A DNA stretch of 61,177 nucleotides, counting the filler, from Dugesia japonica (Eukaryota), in NCBI GenBank assembly GCA_001938525.1. It is 5 parts of 5 records of this genome, joined end to end, with 100 filler letters (N's around TTAATTAATTAA, not from the genome) between each part and the next. Parts side by side here need not be neighbours in the genome. Positions count along the whole stretch, not along the records: positions 1 to 14,880 come from MQRL01469354.1; 4 more parts are not named here. One strand, 5' to 3'. Numbering within the stretch: position 1 is the stretch's first letter; each line of letters starts with the position of its first letter. This document shows positions 10,339-25,898 of this stretch, one piece after another. Below the pieces are notes generated by a model. It searched no databases. It was not told the DNA's origin and saw nothing but the letters and a program-made list of their open reading frames with translations. The position numbers and the translations under genes were made by a program.

Positions 10339-11793
10339 TTAAAAGACTGTTGGCTGGAGCTCATTAGCATAAAACCTACCAAGTATTTGATTTCCTTCTT
10401 GATCAGAGATTCCATAAGTTAATACTCCATCCCATGGTTGTGATGTATTATTTTCTCTATAGATTTTATAAATAGTATAAATATCTCTAGTCCAATTTAT
10501 TGTGTAACCTTTTTCAAATTTATCTTTAAATCTAAATATTCTAACTCGTTGACCAATTTTTAATTTGTTTTTATTTTTCCAGTTAACTGGAGTAACTAGA
10601 TTCTTGTTTGTTAGATTCCATTTAATTGTTTTCTTTTCTAATGATGAATTATCGTTAACTGGACTGCTGGCCAGTTCACTGGCTTGCTGGGGAGTAATAT
10701 TAATTGCACTGTGAACTGTATTATTGTAATCATCGGCTATAGATTGTAACAAATCAATATTCCACTTTTGATTACCCTGTTTAGTAAATAATTTAAACAA
10801 TCTTCTTTTGAATGTTCTAATTACTCGCTCTACAAAAACTGCTTTACCTCTCATTTCTGTTTCTAATAATGTAGAATAAAAATTAATATCATTCTCGATA
10901 CAAAACTCTTGAAAAACTTTATTATAAAATTCTCTTCCATGATCAACCCATAGATTATTAGGAATACGATTACTCTTTTCAATTAGATTTTCAAATCCAT
11001 CTTTTACTTCTTGACCAGTCTTGTTATTTAATCCTTCAATAAATATAAATCTAGTATATAAATCAATTACTATCAAGACTGTAGTCAGTTCTCTTCTAGC
11101 TGGAAAATTAGGAGATCCAATAAACATTAAATCAGCTGACCATGTTTCATCTTTAAAGAATAATTTAACTTTAAGAAACTTTTTAGCTTTTCTAAAAGGT
11201 TTATGAAGTTCATTAGCTTCTGTAGAAGTTGACTGTAAACCAGCTACTAGTCCTGATCCTGTCGTATTCACTCCAGCTCCTAGCATCACTTTACCCTTCA
11301 TTGCTAATTTAACTATTCCTCTTTGAATCTTTTCTGCTAGAGTTGGATCTTCTATATTATTTAAATCATGAATCATGTTTACATCTGCAACATGTCTATC
11401 TCTTATGTCTTCACTATTGTAAGCAACATCATGTTTTAAAGCAGCTTCATCTACTCTATTTATTGGTTCTTCACCTGGTTTCGGAAATAGATTACCATCA
11501 GCATCCTGCTCCAATCGAATGTCCAATCTTGTTCCTGGTCCAGTGTAATTATGACCAAATAAATGCCTTTCACCTGGATACTTTTCAGTGGTAAAAGGTT
11601 TTAATAAAGTAGAAGTTACTTTGGAAGATTGTAAGTCACCTCCAGTTACAGTTCCAGATTGCTGGGCAGTGGATTGTTGGTTGTTACCTTTACCATTGCC
11701 ATTGTTCTTTGAACATATTTTTCTATGTCTTGCTCTATTAGACTTTGCTAAATATCTATTACAATTTATACACAATTCTTTTTCTACTACCAT
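10339..11793 (-). CDS. Fusion of C2HC zinc finger, parvovirus-type phospholipase A2 and retroviral-like (rve) integrase
   Basis: PLA2: NYTGPG, VDEAALKHDVAY, HVAD. Integrase: ELHKP, WSADL, WVDHGREF, VERVIRTFK, YNNTVHSAI, GRFYANELQ. Confidence 0.92.
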   Translation of the reverse strand: MVVEKELCINCNRYLAKSNRARHRKICSKNNGNGKGNNQQSTAQQSGTVTGGDLQSSKVTSTLLKPFTTEKYPGERHLFGHNYTGPGTRLDIRLEQDADGNLFPKPGEEPINRVDEAALKHDVAYNSEDIRDRHVADVNMIHDLNNIEDPTLAEKIQRGIVKLAMKGKVMLGAGVNTTGSGLVAGLQSTSTEANELHKPFRKAKKFLKVKLFFKDETWSADLMFIGSPNFPARRELTTVLIVIDLYTRFIFIEGLNNKTGQEVKDGFENLIEKSNRIPNNLWVDHGREFYNKVFQEFCIENDINFYSTLLETEMRGKAVFVERVIRTFKRRLFKLFTKQGNQKWNIDLLQSIADDYNNTVHSAINITPQQASELASSPVNDNSSLEKKTIKWNLTNKNLVTPVNWKNKNKLKIGQRVRIFRFKDKFEKGYTINWTRDIYTIYKIYRENNTSQPWDGVLTYGISDQEGNQILGRFYANELQPTVF

Positions 11794-11831: not shown

Positions 11832-13151
11832 CTATTTTAACTGGCTAGTAACAATTGGTACAGTTGTTCTAAGTCCTGCTAGCTGACCAGTTAGACTTGG
11901 TAAATTAAAATTCTTTACATCTTGACCTTTAATATTCTCTACAAACATTACTTTACCATTTGATATCTTTAATTCAACATGCTTCTCTAAAAGTATTAAC
12001 CAATATAAATTACCAGTCATTTCACTATCTTTAGTTATGTGGCATGTTAAATCTACATTGTTAACAGTCAACTTTTCATCTTGTGCAGAACAATCAAAAC
12101 AAAAGATTGGATAGAAGCTTGTCCAATCTTTAATACTTAATTGAGGTTTAGTAGAAAATGAATTACACATGTCAATATACATTTGATATGGAAACATTAC
12201 ATTATTATTAACTACATCAAATTCAACTCGAGCATTTGGATAGTAGACATTATTTAATTGTAATTTTATAGTCTTTAGGTAATAGTTGTAAGTCTTGTCT
12301 GGTTTAACTATAGACTGTTTTAATGTAAATAAATTATTATTCAACTTGTATGAATTAGTATTACACTTGTAACCAATAATAACAAATCTAGGTCTATATG
12401 GTAAATTACCCATCTTTATTGAAAAACTAGTACCAGATGATATAGAAGTATTTCTTATTTCTCTTTCCAAGAATGAAGATTGAATTGGTTTATTAGTTGA
12501 TAGTCTTTCTAAATAATGTAATTCCATCTTTGGTGCTAAAGTCCATTCAGGTATATGTAATTCAAGACAGTCTATTTGTATTTCTACTTTATCATCTGTA
12601 CTTCCAAAGAAAATCTTTTCATTCATTATTTCTCTATTACAATCCAATTGAATAAAGGTATTAAATAATAGTCTATTGTAATTTGATAAAAAGCCAAATA
12701 GATTCTTTAGAGGATAATAACCTTCATACTTGGTTAAATATAATTCTTGTCTCTTCTTTGAACTATCTTTTATTGAATCAGGAATCCATCCATAAGCTTG
12801 ATGAGACTTTTCACTAGCCTTGTCAATTAATATTAAATTAATCATTTTAGAAGCTACATCAGGAAAGGTTATTGATTCAATATAAGTAGATCCTAATTTT
12901 AATCTCATTTGTGAAAACAAAGCTGGAAAGAAATCATTCTCTAATGTAGTAGTTGGTTTTTCATTTTTAAAACTAATTCTGAAATACATTTTGGCATTTC
13001 CAATATCTAAAGGATTAGTATTTTGTAGTGATTGGAAAGTTACATCACCATTCTTGTTCAAATTAACCATTGACCCAGCTGTTGGAGAAATTTTCAATAA
13101 ATCACTTTTAGTTTGCACATGAATAAAATTTACGTTAAAGTCCAAGTCCAT
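11832..13151 (-). CDS. Major capsid protein (double jelly-roll, hexon-like)
   Basis: 439 aa, beta-rich; ALFSQMRLKLG..IE, YYPLKNLFGF, RPRFVIIG, LNNVYYP, YPIFCFDCS; position in the Polinton gene set. Confidence 0.87.
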   Translation of the reverse strand: MDLDFNVNFIHVQTKSDLLKISPTAGSMVNLNKNGDVTFQSLQNTNPLDIGNAKMYFRISFKNEKPTTTLENDFFPALFSQMRLKLGSTYIESITFPDVASKMINLILIDKASEKSHQAYGWIPDSIKDSSKKRQELYLTKYEGYYPLKNLFGFLSNYNRLLFNTFIQLDCNREIMNEKIFFGSTDDKVEIQIDCLELHIPEWTLAPKMELHYLERLSTNKPIQSSFLEREIRNTSISSGTSFSIKMGNLPYRPRFVIIGYKCNTNSYKLNNNLFTLKQSIVKPDKTYNYYLKTIKLQLNNVYYPNARVEFDVVNNNVMFPYQMYIDMCNSFSTKPQLSIKDWTSFYPIFCFDCSAQDEKLTVNNVDLTCHITKDSEMTGNLYWLILLEKHVELKISNGKVMFVENIKGQDVKNFNLPSLTGQLAGLRTTVPIVTSQLK

Positions 13152-13952: not shown

Positions 13953-14153
13953 TTAATTAAATTCATTTTCATTTATATTTAAAGTACTTCCATGTCTAAT
14001 TGAATTTCTATTATTATAAACATCTTTTAAAAAATTACTATTTTCTATTCCGTTATTATATATTGTTTTTGGAACAGAATTTATTAATTCTTCTTCTTCT
14101 TCATTATTATTATTTACTATAGGAGAAGCTGCCCCTCCTTTAACATTTTCCAT
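13953..14153 (-). CDS. Small Polinton hypothetical protein (MENVKGGAASP...), likely true start at 14153
   Basis: ATG overlaps the end of the upstream ORF; the longer predicted N-terminus is a low-complexity overlap. Confidence 0.35.
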   Translation of the reverse strand: MENVKGGAASPIVNNNNEEEEELINSVPKTIYNNGIENSNFLKDVYNNRNSIRHGSTLNINENEFN

Positions 14154-14673
14154 TTTTTTTATTTTGATTTCTATTAGGTAAAACTTTTGTTTCTTCTTCT
14201 TCTTCTTCTTCTTCAAAATAATGTTCTTTCTTATTATTATTAATATGTTCTTGTAAAAATTTATAATTGCAAGCATTGAATTTGGGGAATTGAGCTTTAT
14301 CATTCATTGCAGAGATTAATTTTAATTTTATGATCCTACTCTCTTTTATTCTTTCTTCTTCTTTGTCTATTACTTTTTTAGGTTTAAATTCCATTAATGA
14401 TGTTTTATTTTTTCTATAATAACACCCATCTTTATTAGGTAAAAATAATGAAGTTACATTATCATATTCAAATCTATTATTTTCAGTCTTTTTCTTTGGT
14501 TTTAAAGGTTTTACTATATTTTTTTTTCTTAATATTTTATTAAGTTCACTAATATTTACCCTTATTTTTTTAGAAATTTGTGTATTAGTTAAATTATAAT
14601 CTGTTTTTTTTGTATTTAAATAATCTTCAAGAATAATTTGTTCTAGTTCATTTAACACATTATATGCTGCCAT
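14140..14673 (-). CDS. Polinton accessory basic protein, possible N-terminal HTH
   Basis: LTNTQISKKIRVNISELNKIL resembles a helix-turn-helix; first gene inside the right TIR. Confidence 0.5.
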   Translation of the reverse strand: MAAYNVLNELEQIILEDYLNTKKTDYNLTNTQISKKIRVNISELNKILRKKNIVKPLKPKKKTENNRFEYDNVTSLFLPNKDGCYYRKNKTSLMEFKPKKVIDKEEERIKESRIIKLKLISAMNDKAQFPKFNACNYKFLQEHINNNKKEHYFEEEEEEEETKVLPNRNQNKKNGKC

Positions 14674-14806: not shown

Positions 14807-14880
14807 TCAATCATCACAAGAAAAAAAAGCAATTACATCATTTGATGATAAACGATACATATTAGAAGATGGAATAACTA
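14807..14880 (+). repeat. Inner part of right terminal inverted repeat (matches 517-590)
   Basis: 74-nt perfect reverse complement running into the scaffold end; preceded by 10-bp ccaaatcgag-type repeats. Confidence 0.9.
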
Positions 14881-14980
14881 NNNNNNNNNNNNNNNNNNNN
14901 NNNNNNNNNNNNNNNNNNNNNNNNTTAATTAATTAANNNNNNNNNNNNNNNNNNNNNNNNNNNNNNNNNNNNNNNNNNNN
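14881..14980. other. Artificial scaffold spacer N44-TTAATTAATTAA-N44 (also 26359-26458, 37915-38014, 48928-49027)
   Basis: Four identical 100-nt spacers with a six-frame stop linker. Confidence 0.97.
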
Positions 14981-17152: not shown

Positions 17153-19010
17153 GATGTCTTTTGATGTTATTCGTTGATTTATAAATGTTCCATTAGAGGA
17201 AACTATTAATCTTGGTTGTGAATAATGTGAAAAAATCTGACTGAGCATGATTTTTTAAGTGTGTTTGCTTTTAATGAACTATTGAGTTTTGTTATATCTA
17301 ATATACATTTTTGTCTAATGATATATGGCACAAACAAGTTGATGCTATGAGTTCATCTGTTGCTCTTACTTTAGATTTTTTGTTTATTTCAAATATGGAA
17401 GATAAAATTGATTTGTTTACTGAAAATAAAACATTCAATTGAGTTCTGACCTTGTTTATAAATATGAATGTAATTTGTGTAATGCCACATACATTCGAGA
17501 GACTTTCAGTCATCTCTATACAAGAATTCAGGAGCATAGTCGAGTTTGTAGTGGAAATAATATTGCTGAACATAACATTAATTGGGAATCAGTTGTTAGA
17601 ATAAATAGTTTTTAAATTTGGTACAGAAACTTTTAAGATTATTGAGAGAGAATTATGTATGAATAAATTATTATTAGATCAATCAACACAAAAATTAATG
17701 TTCAAAAAGGCTTTCTAGGTCTTTATTGAATGTTTTTATTTCATTTGATTTATTGAAAAGATTGCATAATTGATTACATAATCATAACTTTTAAAAGGAT
17801 TTTTCATTGTATATTGTATCTTAGGATGATACATATTCTGTCTAAAAATGTTGTACTAAAATATTTATTGAAATAGCGTTTAAGAGTTTGTATTGTTATT
17901 AATAGTATTATTATTGTTCAGATCACAATGATTATTATAATTGGACAACGCTGAAAAGATTTTTATAAAATCTTTTCTTTAATAAATTACAACTTTTTAA
18001 ATAAATTAAATAAAATAAAAAGGGAAATATTATTACAATAAAATTTACTTTAAAACTATCTTACCAAAAATTTATAAAAAGTATACTAAAATTGTAGACA
18101 AATGAAATTTACTTTTTTTTACAATTCAANNNNNNNNNNNNNNNNNNNNNNNNNNNNNNNNNNNNNNGATTCATAGATTTTAAATATGTGGGAAATTTTT
18201 TTAATTTGATATATATTATATTATATTATTTCATTAAAATAAAGAAAAAGCTTCGATCAAAATAAAATGTATTTGTAAAGAAATTAAAATTTTCGACAAT
18301 AGTCTTCAGGAACATGATGACTTATTGATTGATTCAATGCAATAGATCTTTGTTACTCAATTCTTTAGATTTTATCGAAATTTTATTNNNNNNNNNNNNN
18401 NNNNNNNNNNNNNNNNNNNNNNNNNNNNNNNNNNNNNNNNNNNNNNNNNNNNNNNNNNNNNNNNNNNNNNNNNNNNCATTTTTCGACCGGAAAGAGTCTT
18501 TCAGCTCTTATTCTTTCACCCTTTATTATTCCAATTTTCTTTCTGATGGTAGTATTACTACTCCAAGGTAAAATATGTCACTGTAAAATGGTTTCATATA
18601 CAACTGGGTAAGTTATAATTCACCAGATTTCTTTTGCATTAAGGTGTCCAGAAAAGGAATCTGAAAGTCGATTGACTTCTCTAAAGTGAATTTAATGTTA
18701 TCATTAATACTATTGACTAGTTCTAAAATATTTTCTAATGAAGAATTAGCAACAAAATAAATATCGTCTATATATTTGAACCAAAGATATATCTTCTTCT
18801 CAGCTTTGAGAAAATTTTTATTTTCAATGAAGTTCATAAAAATTATCGTTAAAATAGGAGACAAATTGTTACCCATTGCAAGACCACTTTTTTGTTTAAA
18901 AAGCTGTTCACCAATAAAAATGTTGTCAGAGAATAGACATAAATTGATAAAATAAATTATGAACTTCATTGAAAATAAAATTATTCTCAAAGCTGAGAAG
19001 AAGATATATC
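17153..19010 (-). mobile_element. Penelope-like retroelement fragments (RT core at 18613-18990; probable downstream domain at about 17153-17580)
   Basis: FKQKSGLAMGNNLSP, KYIDDI, NIKFTLE..IPFLD are Penelope-type RT motifs. Confidence 0.8.
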
Positions 19011-19482
19011 TTAAGTTTTAAAATTAAGTTTCAAAATTTACAAAAAAAATACAAAATTAAAATTTTTACCTATAATATAATAATTGTTAAAATAATTTCA
19101 AAATTCCTAATATTTTAAAATTATAATCAAATAAAATTTTAAAAAAATTTGAAAAATCACTAATATATAAAAATTTATAATAAAAAAAACTTTAAAAAAT
19201 CTCTAATATATGAAAATTTTATCAAAACACAACTGAAAATTAAATATATAAAAAATTTTCTATTTGATTAAAAACATTTAGAGAGTAAATTTAAAAATAA
19301 AAATTAATAATTAAAATAAACCAATAAAATTTCGATAAAATCTAAAGAATTGAGTAACAAAGATCTATTGCATTGAATCGATCAATAAGTCATCATGTTC
19401 CTGAAGACCATTGTCGATAATTTGAATTTCTTTACAAATACATTTTATTTTGATCGAAGCCTTTTCATTATTTCAATGAAAT
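18229..19482. repeat. About 155-bp inverted repeat pair (about 18229-18387 and 19323-19482) bracketing the Penelope RT fragment
   Basis: Near-identical reverse complements, e.g. cttcaggaacatgatgacttattga / tcaataagtcatcatgttcctgaag. Confidence 0.8.
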
Positions 19483-19906: not shown

Positions 19907-20046
19907 CAAAAATGGTGATTTTAAAATAGCGATCTTAAAAATGGCGACCACAAAATAGGAATCTTCAAAATAGCGACTACTTCAAAATAGCGGCTACTTC
20001 ATAATGGGGAACACTTCATAATGGCGACTAATTCAAATGGCGAATT
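19907..20046 (+). repeat. Degenerate 14-17-nt tandem array with AAAATGGCG-like core, upstream of the retroelement polyprotein
   Basis: aaaatggtga, aaaatagcga, aaaatggcga, aaaatagcgg, ataatggcga, caaatggcga. Confidence 0.7.
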
Positions 20047-20665
20047 TAATGAAAAATTAGAGGATATAGTACCGGAAAAATTGCAAGCTGAACATTTAAA
20101 TAATATATCACAAAGATATGATGAGCAAGCATCAGCAGGATCAGATCAAGGACTTATAAGAAGTTTAATCAAATTGGTACATGCTGATCTATATGATTGT
20201 ATAATAACTCAGAGTAGACCACTAATGATATTTGAAGATATGAAACTCATATTAAAAGAAGTAAGCAAATTGATAATAGCACATCCAGAAAGTGATGATT
20301 ATAAAGTAATAAAAACAATGATGAAGGAAAGAATAAATAAAAACAAAGGAGTTACAGCTATTTTGTATCTAATACTCAAGAATAGAGAACAATTAGTTGA
20401 GAGACCTGATAAAAACATTGTGGTCGTAGAGCAAATAGTTAATCAATTTTTTTACAAAGGAATTAACGCGTGGATCACTCAAGAAAGAGGTTGGGAAACG
20501 TTATATCCAACAAGTAATTGTAAACAGAAAATTCAGCAAACAGAACAGGAAGATGAAATAAAGAAACTCATTAATAAAGAGACAAAAAAATCAAATCGAC
20601 CACTAATGGGTACAATAATAACAATTATAACAATGTGTTTGGAATTAGCAAAAGGAGCAAATGCG
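20021..20665 (+). CDS. Bcl-2-like domain followed by a hydrophobic anchor/signal peptide (N-terminus of polyprotein)
   Basis: BH2-like NAWITQERGWETL; BH1-position ERINKNKGVTAILYL; N106-W151-W158 spacing (45, 7) equals human BCL2 N143-W188-W195. Confidence 0.6.
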
Positions 20666-22440
20666 ATGGTAGCATATGATTGTAACACTCCAAAATGGGG
20701 AAAAAAGTAATCATTATTAGATGTAGAAAATTTCCCAGAGGCGCACCTGACTAAAATAAAAATATCAAATCCAATAATCATGCATTTATATCAAGAATCT
20801 GATTTTGTACATGCAGACGCATATGAATGTAGTATAAAATTTGAAGAAGAAGTTTCATATTGTTATACCACGCAAAGTATACCACTAATACCAGCTCGGT
20901 CCCCAGACATAGTGGTAATAGATGCGAGTGATTGTGAGAAAGCGTTTAAAACAAAAACGTTGAAAGTACATGGTAATGAATTACAAGTAAGAGTTTGTGC
21001 GAAAGTAAAGCAAAAAGTGGACATTGTAGGATGGTCAACCGCGAGTGGATATTGTAGAGGGGAAATAATAAAATATCGGGGCAAATGAAATCTGACATCT
21101 TAGTTCGAAGGCAATATCATGTTGAACTAAAGAAAATAAAAGTAACATTTGATGCTGCTCCGGGAAAAATGATGACACATCCATTTTGTAGCTTAAAGTA
21201 CACAAGTTGTGATACCGGAGAATCGATGATGGTGTATAAAGTAAATCCATTTGAATGTACACTTACGAAATTAAGGACAGTTGGAATGAGAGAAGTTAGT
21301 GGAACTTTACCAACGGATAAGCCACCTAACATATAAGATGCAAAAAGGAAAGCAACAGTGATTGGGGAAAAGACAACACCAACAATATATATATCAAATT
21401 CAACACAAGAAGCATTAAGACGTATTGAAAAAGGAGTAGATATCAAGTGTAGAGTAGAAGTGACAGTAACAAATTATAATGGGTTATATCTATCAACAAA
21501 AGAAATAAAAGATGCCAGACCAGGGGTTGATAAACTGGATGTAAAATAGCTACATATTTTAATAATAAAATTGACTTTATCTATCATGAAATTTTAAGAC
21601 AAGTAGATAGAATATATTAAGAAACAATGATGAAAAATTGCAAAAATAAGCGAAAATTGCTAAGAGCAAAAATGGCAATGGAAGTAACAAATCCGGATTT
21701 AGTAGCAGCACTCTTGTTTGAAGAAAGAGGAACATTTGGAAGAATAGTGGGAGAAACTTTAGTGAGTTTTAAATGTAAACCAGTAACAGTTACGCTTACA
21801 GATCATGAGAAATGTACTAATGAATTACCAGTAATTTATAAAGGAGAGAAAGTATTTTTGCTTCCAATAACAAGAATTCTATCAGATAAACATTATCAAC
21901 CAAAAGTGATTNAAAAATGTAGTAATATTCTTGATACTATGTACAAAATAACTGAAGAGGTATGGATAACAGTGTCGGACAGAAAGACAGCACCAACTCC
22001 ACTGATGATGGAAATGATAAAGCTCAGTAGAACAACAGAAATGGAAAGGATTGATAATATGGAAAATCGTGGTATTTATACAATTAACGATATNNNNNNN
22101 NNNNNNNNNNNNNNNNNNNNNNNNNNNNNNNNNNNNNNNNNNNNNNNNNNNNNNNNNNNNNNNNNNNNNNNNNNNNNNNNNNNNNNNNNNNNNNNNNNNN
22201 NNNNNNNNNNNNNNNNNNNNNNNNNNNNNNNNNNNNNNNNNNNNNNNNNNGTAGATAGATTTTTGGGGGGATTGCAATGGTTTGGCAATATATTCTCATG
22301 TATTTTATTTGGGTGGTATGTCTTAACATTTTTAAAAATTAGCGGGTCATCAAATAATTTCTCTAAGACAACTACATGCAGTTTTCGGTTACACATGGAA
22401 ACTAAAACCATGTTGCTGTCCATTTATTGCAAAACACATG
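20666..22440 (+). pseudogene. Chuvirus-like (class III/gB-related) envelope glycoprotein, with 3 stops and 3 frameshifts
   Basis: AYDC..SLLDV, LYQ..C..YC, GYCRG, TYFNNKIDFIY, GETL..KCKPV.V....CTNELPV.Y.G..VFL.P.TRIL, GIYT, TM WFGNIFSCILFGWYVL, LHAVFGYTWKL. Confidence 0.82.
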
Positions 22441-22669
22441 ATTGTGCAAAGCCATAGTGAAAATATAAAGAATCTAGAAAAACATCGAGGCATATATACA
22501 GTAAACACAGATGATGAGCAAGAGTTAAATAAATTAACTAATGATAGATCATCAGATACAGAATATAAGCCATATAAACAAGAAAACATTGAGTTAAAAC
22601 AAATAAAAATAGATGATTCAACACAATATAGATGTCAAAAAAATTACTCAATATCAGTCATAAATTCAG

Positions 22670-23010
22670 AAAATAATAGACCAAAAACAGACATCATAAT
22701 AAATGGAATTAGTATACCTTCGTTAATAGATACAGGAGCAGTATGCTCAATAATAAAAGAATCATGGTTAAATAAAGCCCAAAGACAGAAAATGAAAAAC
22801 TATAAACCAGATGGTATAAAGTCATTTACAGGTCATATAATAAAAACAAAAAGGATAATTGAGTGTACGGTCACAATTGGACAAGAAATTGTTACTTATT
22901 TAGAGTTATGGAAAAGGGAACACAGAATTGTATTTTAGGTATGAATTTTCTGGCAAGATTAAAAGGTTATGTCATTGATCTACAAGATAGCATATTTAAA
23001 AGTGGTAACA
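22670..23010 (+). pseudogene. Retropepsin aspartic protease
   Basis: SLIDTGAVCSII; ILGMNFL after a frameshift. Confidence 0.88.
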
Positions 23011-23603
23011 TCATTACCAGTGCAAGATAAAGGTAATGTGATATGTGCAACAGACTNNNNNNNNNNNNNNNNNNNNNNNNNNNNNNNNNNNNNNNNNNNN
23101 NNNNNNNNNNNNNNNNNNNNNNNNNNNNNNNNNNNNNNNNNNNNNNNNNNNNNNNNNNNNNNNNNNNNNNNNNNNNNNNNNNNNNNNNNNNNNNNNNNNN
23201 NNNNNNNNNNNNNNNNNNNNNNNNNNNNNNNNNNNNNNNNNNNNNNNNNNNNNNNNNNNNNNNNNNNNNNNNNNNNNNNNNNNNNNNNNNNNNNNNNNNN
23301 NNNNNNNNNAAATTGTAGTGGAGGAACAACAAAATAGAGTGAATTTACAGAGGCAGAATAAACAAGTTCCGACTATGAAATCAGGGAAAAAGGGGTGTCA
23401 ATTAAATAATCATGAATTATTTGAACTTATACTGAAGAAACAAAAGAAAAATGAAAAACTAACTGACAAAGAACTAATAAAACAAAAACAAATAAAGTAC
23501 TATGAGAAAGCAAAAATAACAAAAAAAAATCTTACAATAAATCAGCAACAACAACTACAGAAACTGCTAGACAAATATGAGGATGCATTCGCTAAACATC
23601 AAT

Positions 23604-23810
23604 TTGAAACAGTTTAGACCATTTATATATGGAACTGAGATAATTATCCGAACAGATCATAAACCATTAGAGGGTTTGTGGAAAAACAAGGATGCATCCA
23701 GTAGGATATTGAAATGGGCAATGAAAATCCAAGATATGAGCATACGTATAATATACAAGCCAGGTAAAGCAAATTAAAATGCTGATGCATTATCAAGAAT
23801 TCCAGAAATA
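23604..23810 (+). pseudogene. RNase H C-terminal remnant (RT and RNase H N-terminus absent)
   Basis: KQFRPFIYG..IRTDHKPL..RILKW..IYKPGKAN*NADALSR. Confidence 0.85.
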
Positions 23811-23959
23811 AATATATTAGAAATGATGTCAATTGTTATAACTGGAACAAATTTGAAAACGTTTCTAGAAGAACAAAATAAAGATAAAAAAATACAAGAC
23901 ATTAAAAAGATGATGATTCGAGAAAAGAATACTAAATATAAAATGTATAAGAATTTTCT

Positions 23960-25080
23960 TATGTACAATAACTGATGGTTGTACCAGATTCTTTAAAACA
24001 ATTGTTACTGCTACAATATCCTGATGGAGCGCTCGGAGGACACTTATCCAGTAGAAAAACCAAGACTTCTACAAAAATATTATTGNNNNNNNNNNNNNNN
24101 NNNNNNNNNNNNNNNNNNNNNNNNNNNNNNNNNNNNNNNNNNNNNNNNNNNNNNNNNNNNNNNNNNNNNNNNNNNNNNNNNNNNNNNNNNNNNNNNNNNN
24201 NNNNNNNNNNNNNNNNNNNNNNNNNNNNNNNNNNNNNNNNNNNNNNNNNNNNNNNNNNNNNNNNNNNNNNNNNNNNNNNNNNNNNNNNNNNNNNNNNNNN
24301 NNNNGGAAGCGTTTCCTGCCAAAGATGAAACAGCAGATACAGTAGCAAGGTTATTAGTTGAGAAGATAATTTACAAATATGGAGCGCCAAGGAAGCTGTT
24401 ATCAGATAGAGGAAAGAGTTTCCTCAACAAAGTAATTCAACGAGTAACAAATATATTTGATATTAAGAAAATAAATACAACGGCTTATCATCCACAAACT
24501 GATGGGTTAGTTGAAAGATTTAACAGCACATTATGTAATAGATTGTGAATAAACATAAAAATGNNNNNNNNNNNNNNNNNNNNNNNNNNNNNNNNNNNNN
24601 NNNNNNNNNNNNNNNNNNNNNNNNNNNNNNNNNNNNNNNNNNATCTTATGTTTCTCAGAAAAAATCATATGCCAATAGATATAACATTTGAACCAATTGT
24701 GTCACAATATATGGACAATCCAGATTACGTGTCAAAAATGCAAGAAAGATTACAAGAGGTATATAAACAGGCAAATCTAAAAGTAAAGTTCAAACAGGAA
24801 CAATACAAATATTATTATGATCGAAATGTCATTGAACATAGTTTTCAAGTGGGGGATAATGTGAGAATAAAGACACCAATTACACAGAAGGGATTAACAA
24901 ATAAACTAGCAAGGCCTTACAAAGGTCCATATGAGGTAGTAAAGACAACCCCTACAAATCTGCATGTGATAAAAAACAAAAAAGATGATCCCATAATTGT
25001 GGCAGTTAACCGATGCAAAACAGCAGAAGCAGAAATTGAACCTAAAAAACAACACAAATATAATCTTCGATCAGGATCAC
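23960..25080 (+). pseudogene. Gypsy-type integrase
   Basis: GGHL, YGAPRKLLSDRGKSF, TTAYHPQTDGLVERFN, FQVGD.V, KL...YKGPYEV. Confidence 0.9.
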
Positions 25081-25094
25081 AAAATACACTACCA

Positions 25095-25898
25095 CTTTTT
25101 ACACTAACTTTAGTGACATTGTTGACAGTAGGTGTAGCTCAATTAGAGAAGATAAAATGTTCTAGTTATATAAAAACGATAATTTATTCAGATAGAATCA
25201 TACTCAGGGCACCTGATAATATAACGATCGCTGCAACGATAAAAGATAGACCAATCGCATACGTTAAAGATATATCGAGTGAATACACCGGAAAAAAGAA
25301 ATATGTCTTCATACCAATACCAATGAAATTTAACAAGGGGATAGTTCAGATAGAGATAAAAGAACTAGAGGCCAACACAAAATATAGAATTTGGATACAT
25401 TATCGGATAAAAGGAATCAGATCATTAGAACAACATATGTTTACTACATTATCGGAGAAACGAATTATACCACAAATAAGATTAATGACTACTCCCACAA
25501 AACAGGAAAAGTTGAGTACAACCAAATCACAAATAGAAACAACTATTCATCATAGTACACTAGTATATANNNNNNNNNNNNNNNNNNNNNNNNNNNNNNN
25601 NNNNNNNNNNNNNNNNNNNNNNNNNNNNNNNNNNNNNNNNAATAATAACACGAAATTAGATTACCAACAAATACGACACAAAATTCTACAGATGTGGGTT
25701 ACAACAACAATAAAACCATTTAACATAAAAATATTACATCATCCTTTTTCAATACTGGGAATGGCTGCATTACTCTTCCTCCTGGCTTTCATAGTCACAT
25801 TAATCCAAATGCATAAGCGATATAGGTGGAAGAGGCAGCGTTATCGTCGTCGCAATGCTCCACAAATTTCGAACTATGCCCAATGGACATTGGTCTGA
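25095..25898 (+). CDS. Type I membrane protein module fused after integrase: signal peptide, FN3-like domain, Thr-rich stalk, TM, basic tail
   Basis: LFTLTLVTLLTVGVA; IEIKELEANTKYRIWI (FN3 L.P.T.Y motif); ILGMAALLFLLAFIVTLI followed by HKRYRWKR. Confidence 0.65.
   Translation, partial: LFTLTLVTLLTVGVAQLEKIKCSSYIKTIIYSDRIILRAPDNITIAATIKDRPIAYVKDISSEYTGKKKYVFIPIPMKFNKGIVQIEIKELEANTKYRIWIHYRIKGIRSLEQHMFTTLSEKRIIPQIRLMTTPTKQEKLSTTKSQIETTIHHSTLVYXXXXXXXXXXXXXXXXXXXXXXXXNNNTKLDYQQIRHKILQMWVTTTIKPFNIKILHHPFSILGMAALLFLLAFIVTLIQMHKRYRWKRQRYRRRNAPQISNYAQWTLV

What the first reader, a model, noticed from the sequence alone, without database searches (positions are those of the whole stretch)
10339..11793. 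Phospholipase A2-integrase fusion with protease-type sites flanking the PLA2 domain
Seen: an intact Ca-loop YTGPG and DxxAxxHDxxY..D catalytic motif (aa about 72-174, nt about 11272-11580) fused to a full DDE integrase. The domain is bracketed by VTGG|D upstream and MLGA|G and TTGSG downstream. Known: parvovirus VP1u PLA2 mediates endosomal escape; adenain cleaves (M/L/I)xGG|x and (M/L/I)xGx|G; PLA2 genes are reported in adintoviruses. Inference: a virion-packaged polyprotein cleaved at maturation, coupling membrane escape to integrase delivery, which would imply integrase travels in the particle. Similar fusions likely exist in other invertebrate Polintons, so the mechanism is more novel than the architecture.
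Basis: partly seen in the sequence, partly recalled or inferred. Interest (0 to 1): 0.7.

Follow-up and report, generated by a model that had tools for sequence, protein, structure and literature searches.

The report
Polinton lipase–integrase precursor protein
A virus-like element embedded in a eukaryotic genome makes its predicted membrane-breaking enzyme and its DNA-inserting enzyme as one protein with likely cut sites between them, an arrangement shared by many relatives that suggests, without yet proving, that the integrase is packed into the virus particle.

Summary
ORF 10339-11793(-) of an endogenous Polinton/adintovirus encodes a zinc-knuckle leader, a parvovirus-type PLA2 with intact catalytic motifs, and a DDE integrase lacking the HHCC and chromo domains. 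The fusion is an old, conserved lineage trait: among 70 non-redundant fused homologs (29-56% identity), PLA2 catalytic residues are kept in 66 and DDE in 70. Two of the three flanking motifs are conserved (GG|x 43/57; GxG or GG 61/67); TTGSG is not (7/53). The adenain P4 rule (M/L/I) fails (3/57, 7/67). Lysine is usual there, and unfused PLA2X proteins carry the same sites, so they are inherited, family-wide motifs (KxGG|x, KxGx|G).

New here: the pX half of PLA2X is a separate ORF in this element; PLA2-integrase fusions arose more than once; integrase is also fused to the protease or DUF5679 through GxG/GG junctions. Best reading: a virion precursor cut by the element's protease into PLA2 plus an integrase with a near-native N-terminus. 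Cleavage and packaging are inferred. Mavirus is the precedent (virion integrase, cleaved lipase, GG|X and GX|G sites). No description of the fusion turned up in the papers searched. Verdict: new variant of a known kind, interest 0.5.

The parts
10339..11793 (-). PLA2-integrase fusion ORF, 484 aa, uninterrupted
11713..11772 (-). Cx2C-x11-H-x3-C zinc knuckle in a basic, dispensable leader (aa 8-27; leader pI about 10)
   Evidence: sequence; beta-beta-alpha in model; no Pfam hit; CxxC in 11 of 70 homolog leaders
11635..11649 (-). Upstream putative protease site VTGG|D (aa 49-53)
   Evidence: GG|x in 43 of 57 homologs with residues there; in pLDDT<50 segment 31-54
11278..11637 (-). Parvovirus-type PLA2 domain (aa 53-172): YTGPG at 11533-11547, HD at 11428-11433, D137 at 11383-11385
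   Evidence: PF08398; PLA2X-family profile hits AAV VP1, E 4e-7; fold hits viral PLA2s; top VIA-align hit rice PLA2, Z 7.5, rmsd 3.5, 93 aligned; residues kept in 66 of 70
11272..11286 (-). Downstream putative protease site MLGA|G (aa 170-174; family form K-[LF]-G-x|G)
   Evidence: GxG or GG in 61 of 67 fused and GxG in 73 of 74 unfused PLA2X; helix ends at 172, 173-183 disordered
11251..11265 (-). TTGSG, second GxG in the variable linker; not conserved
   Evidence: 7 of 53 linkers hold a second site
10342..11226 (-). rve integrase: ELHKP helix, DDE core (D221, D284, E322), beta-rich C-terminal domain; no HHCC domain, no chromodomain
   Evidence: PF00665; foamy-virus intasome best PDB match, E 1e-15; MELD-virus and mavirus integrases in BFVD; DDE in 70 of 70
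8726..9394 (-). Separate pX-like core-protein ORF (the part that follows PLA2 in canonical PLA2X), with GG|IFP and three GxG sites; interrupted by an in-frame stop at 9296-9298
   Evidence: only window hit of an HMM of 74 PLA2X tails, E 9e-4; Adeno_PX E 0.2, below cut-off
6374..6883 (-). Adenain/Ulp1-type maturation protease, H/D/Q/C residues present
   Evidence: Peptidase_C5 E 7e-4 and C48 E 5e-4, just under cut-off; alignment
11832..13151 (-). [quoted passage not shown]
   Evidence: PF21738 E 3e-18
9441..10280 (-). A32-like packaging ATPase
   Evidence: PF04665 E 4e-8
6944..7738 (-). Probable penton (minor capsid protein)
   Evidence: inference from size, position and recalled resemblance; no Pfam hit
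7751..8713 (-). Probable core protein with basic stretch then STGQ|G
   Evidence: sequence; no homologs found; role is inference
476..4312 (-). Protein-primed PolB region in three in-frame ORFs (3704-4312 zinc finger, 1448-3667, 476-1423), i.e. interrupted by stop codons in this copy
   Evidence: PF03175 E 7e-18 on the middle piece; frames and stops
517..590 (.). Left arm of a 74-nt perfect inverted repeat, inside the PolB 3' end; probable part of the terminal inverted repeat (left end near 226, inferred)
14807..14880 (.). Right arm of the inverted repeat; runs into a scaffold gap at 14881

Best explanation
The ORF is a virion precursor polyprotein of a Polinton (Alpha-adintovirus-like) lineage. 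SHOWN by sequence comparison: a PLA2 and a DDE integrase are fused and both catalytically constrained across many relatives, and the PLA2 is bracketed by family-wide Gly motifs (usually KxGG|x and KxGx|G). INFERRED: the precursor is made late and packaged. During maturation the element's cysteine protease cuts at GG|D (removing a dispensable, often zinc-binding leader) and at Gx|G. This releases a roughly 13.5-kDa PLA2 that helps the particle breach the endosome, and a roughly 36-kDa integrase whose new N-terminus matches where unfused relatives start and which inserts the incoming genome without new gene expression. The pX-like segment that follows PLA2 in PLA2X is a separate ORF here, so the basic, DNA-binding integrase (pI about 9.5) or the zinc leader may be what loads the acidic PLA2 into the capsid, rather than the reverse.
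For: Fusion in 104 near-complete proteins (this one included) among 269 fetched, 71 after 80% dereplication. Three ESM Atlas clusters of 184, 111 and 72 members have this architecture, though the query's scores (0.82-0.84) are leads only. Both active sites conserved: 66/70 and 70/70. Sites conserved at 43/57 and 61/67 against a background of 5/472, while the leader (21% identity) and linker (6%; 0-86 aa, median 16) drift freely. Both sites border disordered segments. Nine homologs have no leader and start M-(0-3 aa)-D at the residue the cut would expose. 69 of 120 integrases without a detected PLA2 start within 35 aa of the ELHKP helix. The same motif joins PLA2 to pX, DUF5679 or protease, and integrase to protease or DUF5679. 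AAV5 VP1, from a virus with no such protease (recalled), keeps one Gly but not GxG at the matching place (weak alignment). Precedent: mavirus protease cuts GG|X and GY|G, and integrase MV02 plus cleaved MV13 hydrolase are found in virions (PMC6048507 passages).
Against: No cleavage, activity or packaging data exist; virions of Maverick-Polintons have not been observed (10.64898/2026.06.19.733378 passage). Only 41 of 70 homologs have both sites, and 6 of 67 lack the downstream pattern. P4-P2 of the downstream site lie inside the last predicted helix, and its first Gly is shared with AAV5, so it may be a helix cap. The adenain P4 rule is not met. Leaderless starts and short integrase starts are gene-caller choices, and several 'unfused' integrases are truncated fusions. 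The protease-integrase, protease-PLA2 and C-terminal PLA2 cases rest on one to three records each and could be rearranged endogenous copies. This copy's PolB and pX-like genes are interrupted.
Confidence: 0.6

Rival explanations
1. The protein works uncut. The Gly motifs are structural caps and hinges of the PLA2 domain inherited from PLA2X, and the fusion only co-packages or co-regulates two virion enzymes.
For: The downstream Gly ends a helix and is shared with AAV5. GS, GA and similar variants replace GxG in 6 of 67, and upstream GG is replaced in 14 of 57. The sites are not fusion-specific.
Against: The upstream GG lies in a disordered stretch, where conservation has no obvious structural reason. 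The second Gly is kept in 55 of 67 fused and 73 of 74 unfused proteins, and the same K-x-G pattern recurs at unrelated places in the pX tail (KxGG in 72 of 74).
Confidence: 0.22
2. The precursor is cut, but for expression economy only (one gene, two products). PLA2 is packaged while the integrase acts after de novo synthesis in the infected or host cell.
For: Compact genome with tightly packed genes. No packaging signal identified. Adenain can act outside particles (PMC4246237 passages).
Against: Clan-CE maturation proteases act mainly inside assembling particles. The recurring partners of the integrase (PLA2, protease) are predicted virion proteins. Mavirus packages its integrase.
Confidence: 0.12
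3. A neutral read-through of two neighbouring genes, or an artefact of decayed endogenous copies, with no functional coupling.
For: This copy has other broken genes. Degraded chimeras of the same gene exist (Lottia-type records). Fused and unfused rows intermix in parts of the integrase tree.
Against: A 23-row fused PLA2 clade (99/93) spans proteins only 29-56% identical with both active sites intact, which needs long-term selection on a continuous ORF.
Confidence: 0.06

Closest known systems
PLA2X of Alpha adintoviruses / group 2 Polintons (Starrett et al. 2021, PMC8502044; section 3.2 read, plus passages)
   Same: Parvovirus-like PLA2 in a Polinton virion module, proposed membrane-active; same flanking Gly motifs.
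   Different: PLA2X carries a C-terminal pX-like domain and no integrase. Here 0 of 104 fused proteins have the pX motif and the pX-like part is a separate ORF.
Mavirus virophage virion (Born et al. 2018, PMC6048507, passages; Duponchel and Fischer 2019, PMC6428243, passages)
   Same: rve integrase found in particles; a predicted lipase/hydrolase (MV13) found as two fragments around GK|G; protease cuts GG|X and GY|G.
   Different: Integrase and lipase are separate genes, the lipase is an alpha/beta hydrolase rather than PLA2, and mavirus is a protist virophage.
Parvovirus VP1u PLA2 (PF08398)
   Same: Ca-loop GPG and HDxxY...D motifs; sequence and fold similarity.
   Different: Tethered to capsid protein, not integrase; GxG absent at the matching place in AAV5.
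Adenovirus protease and core precursors pVI/pX (PMC4246237 passages; 10.1101/341131 passages)
   Same: Dual pattern: Gly at P2 with Gly at P1 or P1'.
   Different: P4 is M/I/L in adenovirus but mostly K in this family (39/67 fused, 69/73 unfused, 72/74 at the pX site); adenoviruses have no integrase.
Retroviral Gag-Pol (recalled)
   Same: Works like it if the model is right: integrase delivered as part of a precursor and freed by the viral protease at maturation.
   Different: Unrelated protease class, capsid and genome type; an analogy, not membership.

Membership tests
Polinton/Maverick (Polintoviricetes) | Protein-primed PolB | tested here: met
   PF03175 E 7e-18; gene interrupted by in-frame stops in this copy
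Polinton/Maverick (Polintoviricetes) | rve-type DDE integrase | tested here: met
Polinton/Maverick (Polintoviricetes) | Double jelly-roll MCP, A32 ATPase, cysteine protease | tested here: met
   PF21738 and PF04665 above cut-off; protease just under Pfam cut-off but H/D/Q/C align
Polinton/Maverick (Polintoviricetes) | Penton / minor capsid protein | tested here: inconclusive
   candidate 6944-7738 has no Pfam hit
Polinton/Maverick (Polintoviricetes) | Terminal inverted repeats and target-site duplication | tested here: inconclusive
   74-nt inverted arms found; right end falls in a scaffold gap, so no TSD is visible
Adintovirus as defined by Buck et al. 2024 (10.1101/2024.03.25.586562) | Integrase with C-terminal chromodomain | tested here: not met
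   no Chromo hit for P0001; 43 of 50 measured fused homologs also end right after the last strand; other fused homologs do have it
Adintovirus as defined by Buck et al. 2024 (10.1101/2024.03.25.586562) | OTU-like domain at PolB N-terminus; hexon reciprocal BLAST to reference | not tested
   no reference sequences held
PLA2X | Parvovirus-like PLA2 domain | tested here: met
PLA2X | pX-like domain C-terminal in the same protein | tested here: not met
   0 of 104 fused proteins; separate ORF at 8726-9394
Adenain substrate site | Gly at P2 with Gly at P1 or P1' | tested here: met
   43 of 57 upstream, 61 of 67 downstream
Adenain substrate site | M/L/I at P4 | tested here: not met
   3 of 57 and 7 of 67; met only by MLGA|G in this copy
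Adenain substrate site | Actual cleavage by the cognate protease | not testable with these tools
   needs biochemistry
Three-domain retroviral integrase | HHCC zinc-binding N-terminal domain | tested here: not met
   no Pfam hit; the model shows one helix and a loop before the core
Virion protein | Presence in particles | not testable with these tools
   needs particle proteomics

The most novel reading that the evidence does not exclude
Polintons load integrase into the capsid by a Gag-Pol-like trick: they repeatedly fuse it to virion proteins (PLA2, the maturation protease, DUF5679) through K-x-G-G / K-x-G-x-G junctions that the viral protease cuts. In the largest lineage this replaced the pX half of PLA2X, so entry enzyme and integrase are packaged in fixed 1:1 proportion. 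Selection on these junctions would be direct evidence that animal-type Polintons spread as particles that integrate on entry.
Probability: 0.45. Interest if true: 0.7.

Novelty: new variant of a known kind. Interest (0 to 1): 0.5.

Why it matters
Whether animal Polintons form infectious particles, and whether they integrate on entry with a packaged integrase, is an open question. A long-conserved fusion of a predicted entry enzyme to the integrase, joined by protease-type sites, argues indirectly for both and gives a cheap biochemical test that needs no virions. The analysis also yields a testable specificity for the Polinton protease (Lys at P4, adenain-like Gly pattern) that would let precursors be mapped across the family. 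The parts and a virion-borne integrase are already known, and databases already auto-name the architecture, which caps the surprise.

Tried and rejected
Homolog search for the 7751-8713 protein, to test its GxG site, found nothing. The cluster-member look-up could not be made, so host range is unchecked beyond source names: Nymphon striatum for a fused protein, Lottia gigantea for a degraded one, Caerostris for DUF5679-PLA2.

The 12 'PLA2-only' hits of the first two searches looked like fragments or decayed fusions and were not used as the unfused control; a separate search from P0132 supplied it. TTGSG as a conserved site and the strict adenain consensus were rejected. A single origin of all fusions was rejected on the PLA2 tree (AU p 0.0017) and on a 29-row integrase tree (p 0.010), but joining the main clade with the NTD-type fusions was not rejected on the integrase tree (p 0.071); the groups were chosen. 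The VIA-align Z of 7.5 is in the range the tool calls common for helical models, so it is supportive only. One search gave no alignment reaching the C-terminal site.

Literature: 10 searches, of which some aimed at the fusion; no passage describing it was seen. The Starrett supplement text (cut when stored) had 1 'PLA2' and 0 'fusion/fused/cleav' hits. Figure maps, bioRxiv supplements (notably the genome annotations of Buck et al. 2024), Repbase and subscription reviews were not visible and could mention it. No complex prediction was run (enzyme-substrate case).

Full report
OBSERVATION. The ORF at 10339-11793(-) is 484 aa and uninterrupted. Pfam finds the parvovirus-type PLA2 domain (aa 77-161, E 6e-8) and the rve integrase core (aa 216-305, E 1e-9). 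The AlphaFold model (102-row alignment, mean pLDDT 83.7) shows a small beta-beta-alpha leader, disorder at 31-54, a helical PLA2, disorder at 173-183, the integrase core and a beta-rich C-terminal domain. The whole model matches foamy-virus intasomes (E 1e-15) and MELD-virus and mavirus integrases. The PLA2 model alone matches entomopoxvirus and parvovirus PLA2s and, weakly, rice PLA2 (Z 7.5, rmsd 3.5, 93 residues). There is no HHCC domain or chromodomain.

CONTEXT. The gene lies in a Polinton of about 14.7 kb in an AT-rich, gapped eukaryotic scaffold. It is flanked by MCP (11832-13151), ATPase (9441-10280), protease (6374-6883) and PolB. PolB is in three in-frame ORFs separated by stops. Inverted arms at 517-590 and 14807-14880 are probably part of the terminal repeats; the right end falls in a gap. 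Between the ATPase and the 7751-8713 gene lies an ORF missed by a length filter (8726-9394, one in-frame stop). It is the only window hit of an HMM built from the C-terminal tails of 74 PLA2X proteins (E 9e-4), with a sub-threshold Adeno_PX match (E 0.2). So the two halves of PLA2X are separate here; none of 104 fused proteins carries the pX motif.

DISTRIBUTION AND CONSTRAINT. Of the 120 best hits, 90 carry both domains, as do 28 of 148 further hits. Keeping those with both domains nearly whole, in PLA2-integrase order, gave 104 (this protein included), or 71 at 80% identity, 29-56% identical to the query. Among the 70 homologs, G85/H121/D122/Y125/D137 are all kept in 66 and D-D-E in 70. The ESM Atlas holds clusters of 184, 111 and 72 members with this architecture, one automatically named for it (scores under 0.9, leads only).

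THE FLANKING SITES. Upstream, 57 of 70 rows have residues at the site: GG|D in 41, GG|x in 43, Gly at P2 in 55. Downstream, 67 of 70 have residues: GxG in 55 and GG|x in 6. Both sites are present in 41 of 70. Background is 5 of 472 windows. M/L/I at P4 occurs in only 3 and 7 rows; K is at downstream P4 in 39. A second site like TTGSG is in 7 of 53 linkers. As a control, a search with the PLA2 of P0132 among short proteins (best 120 of 380, 103 after dereplication) gave 74 PLA2X with a pX motif. Of these, 73 have the downstream GxG (K at P4 in 69), 37 of 38 with a long leader have an upstream GG/GxG (36 with short leaders not counted), and 72 have KxGG at the pX site. The sites are thus a family signature, best written KxGG|x or KxGx|G: the dual adenain pattern (examples) with Lys at P4. 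The scissile bonds are placed by analogy, not measured. Nine fused homologs begin M-(0-3 aa)-D without a leader, and 69 of 120 integrases without detected PLA2 begin within 35 aa of the ELHKP helix, so both predicted products resemble naturally occurring N-termini; gene-caller starts and truncated fusions weaken this. Against cleavage: P4-P2 of the downstream site are in the last helix, and AAV5 keeps one Gly there, though not GxG (E 0.005).

ORIGINS. On a PLA2 tree (51 rows, 108 columns), 23 of 27 fused rows, including this one, form a clade (99/93) next to DUF5679-PLA2 solos. P0132/P0270 and P0258/P0208 fall elsewhere, and one clade is rejected (AU p 0.0017; two long branches). On an integrase tree (63 rows), 27 fused rows need 12 changes, 7 forced by starred branches, though losses and truncations count as changes; AU p was 0.010 for all fused rows and 0.071 for the main plus NTD-type rows. 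Other junctions were seen: protease-integrase (P0150 and P0207, sisters, E 1e-7 and 5e-9 to the window protease; P0139 by motifs only), DUF5679-integrase (P0100, P0108), protease-PLA2 (P0364) and integrase-chromo-PLA2 (P0214), each with GG or GxG in the linker. These rest on few records.

MECHANISM. Most likely (0.6) a virion precursor cut by the element's protease into a leader (5.7 kDa), PLA2 (13.5 kDa, pI 5.7) and integrase (36 kDa, pI 9.5) (sizes), coupling endosome escape to delivery of an integrase ready to act. Fusion, constraint and site conservation are shown; cutting, activity and packaging are inferred. Rivals: an uncut protein with structural glycines (0.22), cutting without integrase packaging (0.12), a neutral read-through (0.06).

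LITERATURE (what was seen). PMC8502044: passages, section 3.2 and a supplement text search; defines PLA2X, no fusion seen. PMC6048507 and PMC6428243: passages; mavirus integrase in virions, GG|X and GY|G cuts, MV13 in two fragments. PMC4642659: passages; proposes Polinton lipases are packaged for entry. PMC5803895: passages; separate CAP/PLA2 and INT in Spodoptera Mavericks. 10.1101/341131: passages. 10.1101/2024.03.25.586562: passages and section 16. Passages only: PMC3671162, PMC11296320, PMC11131425, PMC10748475, PMC11161782, PMC4246237, 10.64898/2026.06.19.733378 and 10.64898/2026.10.13.758929. No description of a PLA2-integrase fusion was seen in these or in the listings; unseen supplements and figures could hold one. 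The Gag-Pol analogy, the typical AG(T) Polinton terminus and the penton label are recalled.

VERDICT. Real, conserved, and a new variant of known parts. Interest 0.5; 0.7 if the recurrent cleavable-fusion packaging model (probability about 0.45) is confirmed.

Noticed in passing
window 8726-9394 (-): Unannotated pX-like core ORF with a hydrophobic segment after GG and repeated GxG-[IL]YLNPY motifs; one in-frame stop. It is the missing half of PLA2X.
   Followed up: partly
window 476-4312 (-): PolB split by two in-frame stops with no frameshift; the N-terminal piece has two C2H2 fingers. An IQGS|G motif at aa 25-29 of the middle piece fits the GxG pattern.
   Followed up: partly
window 517-590 and 14807-14880: The inverted repeat overlaps the 3' end of the PolB coding region, so the terminal repeat seems to include coding sequence; the right end is lost in a scaffold gap.
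   Followed up: partly
window 412, 4386, 6930, 8406, 10316, 10579: Near-palindromic 12-mer of the type CCAGCTAGCTGG recurs, several copies near ORF ends (including just after the fusion gene); possible transcription-end signal.
   Followed up: no
window 20021-25898 (+): Fragmented Gypsy-like retroelement with a Monjiviricetes/Borna-type fusion glycoprotein (E 3e-25) upstream of protease, RNase H and integrase, preceded by an ORF with a weak Bcl-2 match (E 0.013).
   Followed up: no
proteins P0150, P0207, P0139, P0364, P0100, P0108, P0214: Protease-integrase, protease-PLA2, DUF5679-integrase and integrase-chromo-PLA2 fusions, each with GG/GxG in the linker.
   Followed up: partly
proteins P0271-P0284, P0318, P0384: DUF5679 occurs either before or after PLA2, separated by GG or GxG, as if it were a movable cleavable tag.
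   Followed up: no
window 13953-14303 and 7751-8713 (-): Other small ORFs of the element carry single VKGG|A and STGQ|G motifs; conservation could not be tested.
   Followed up: partly
window 18613-18969 (-): Short reverse-transcriptase fragment (RVT_1, E 3e-6) within a 160-nt inverted repeat pair (18228-18387 / 19323-19482, partly N).
   Followed up: no
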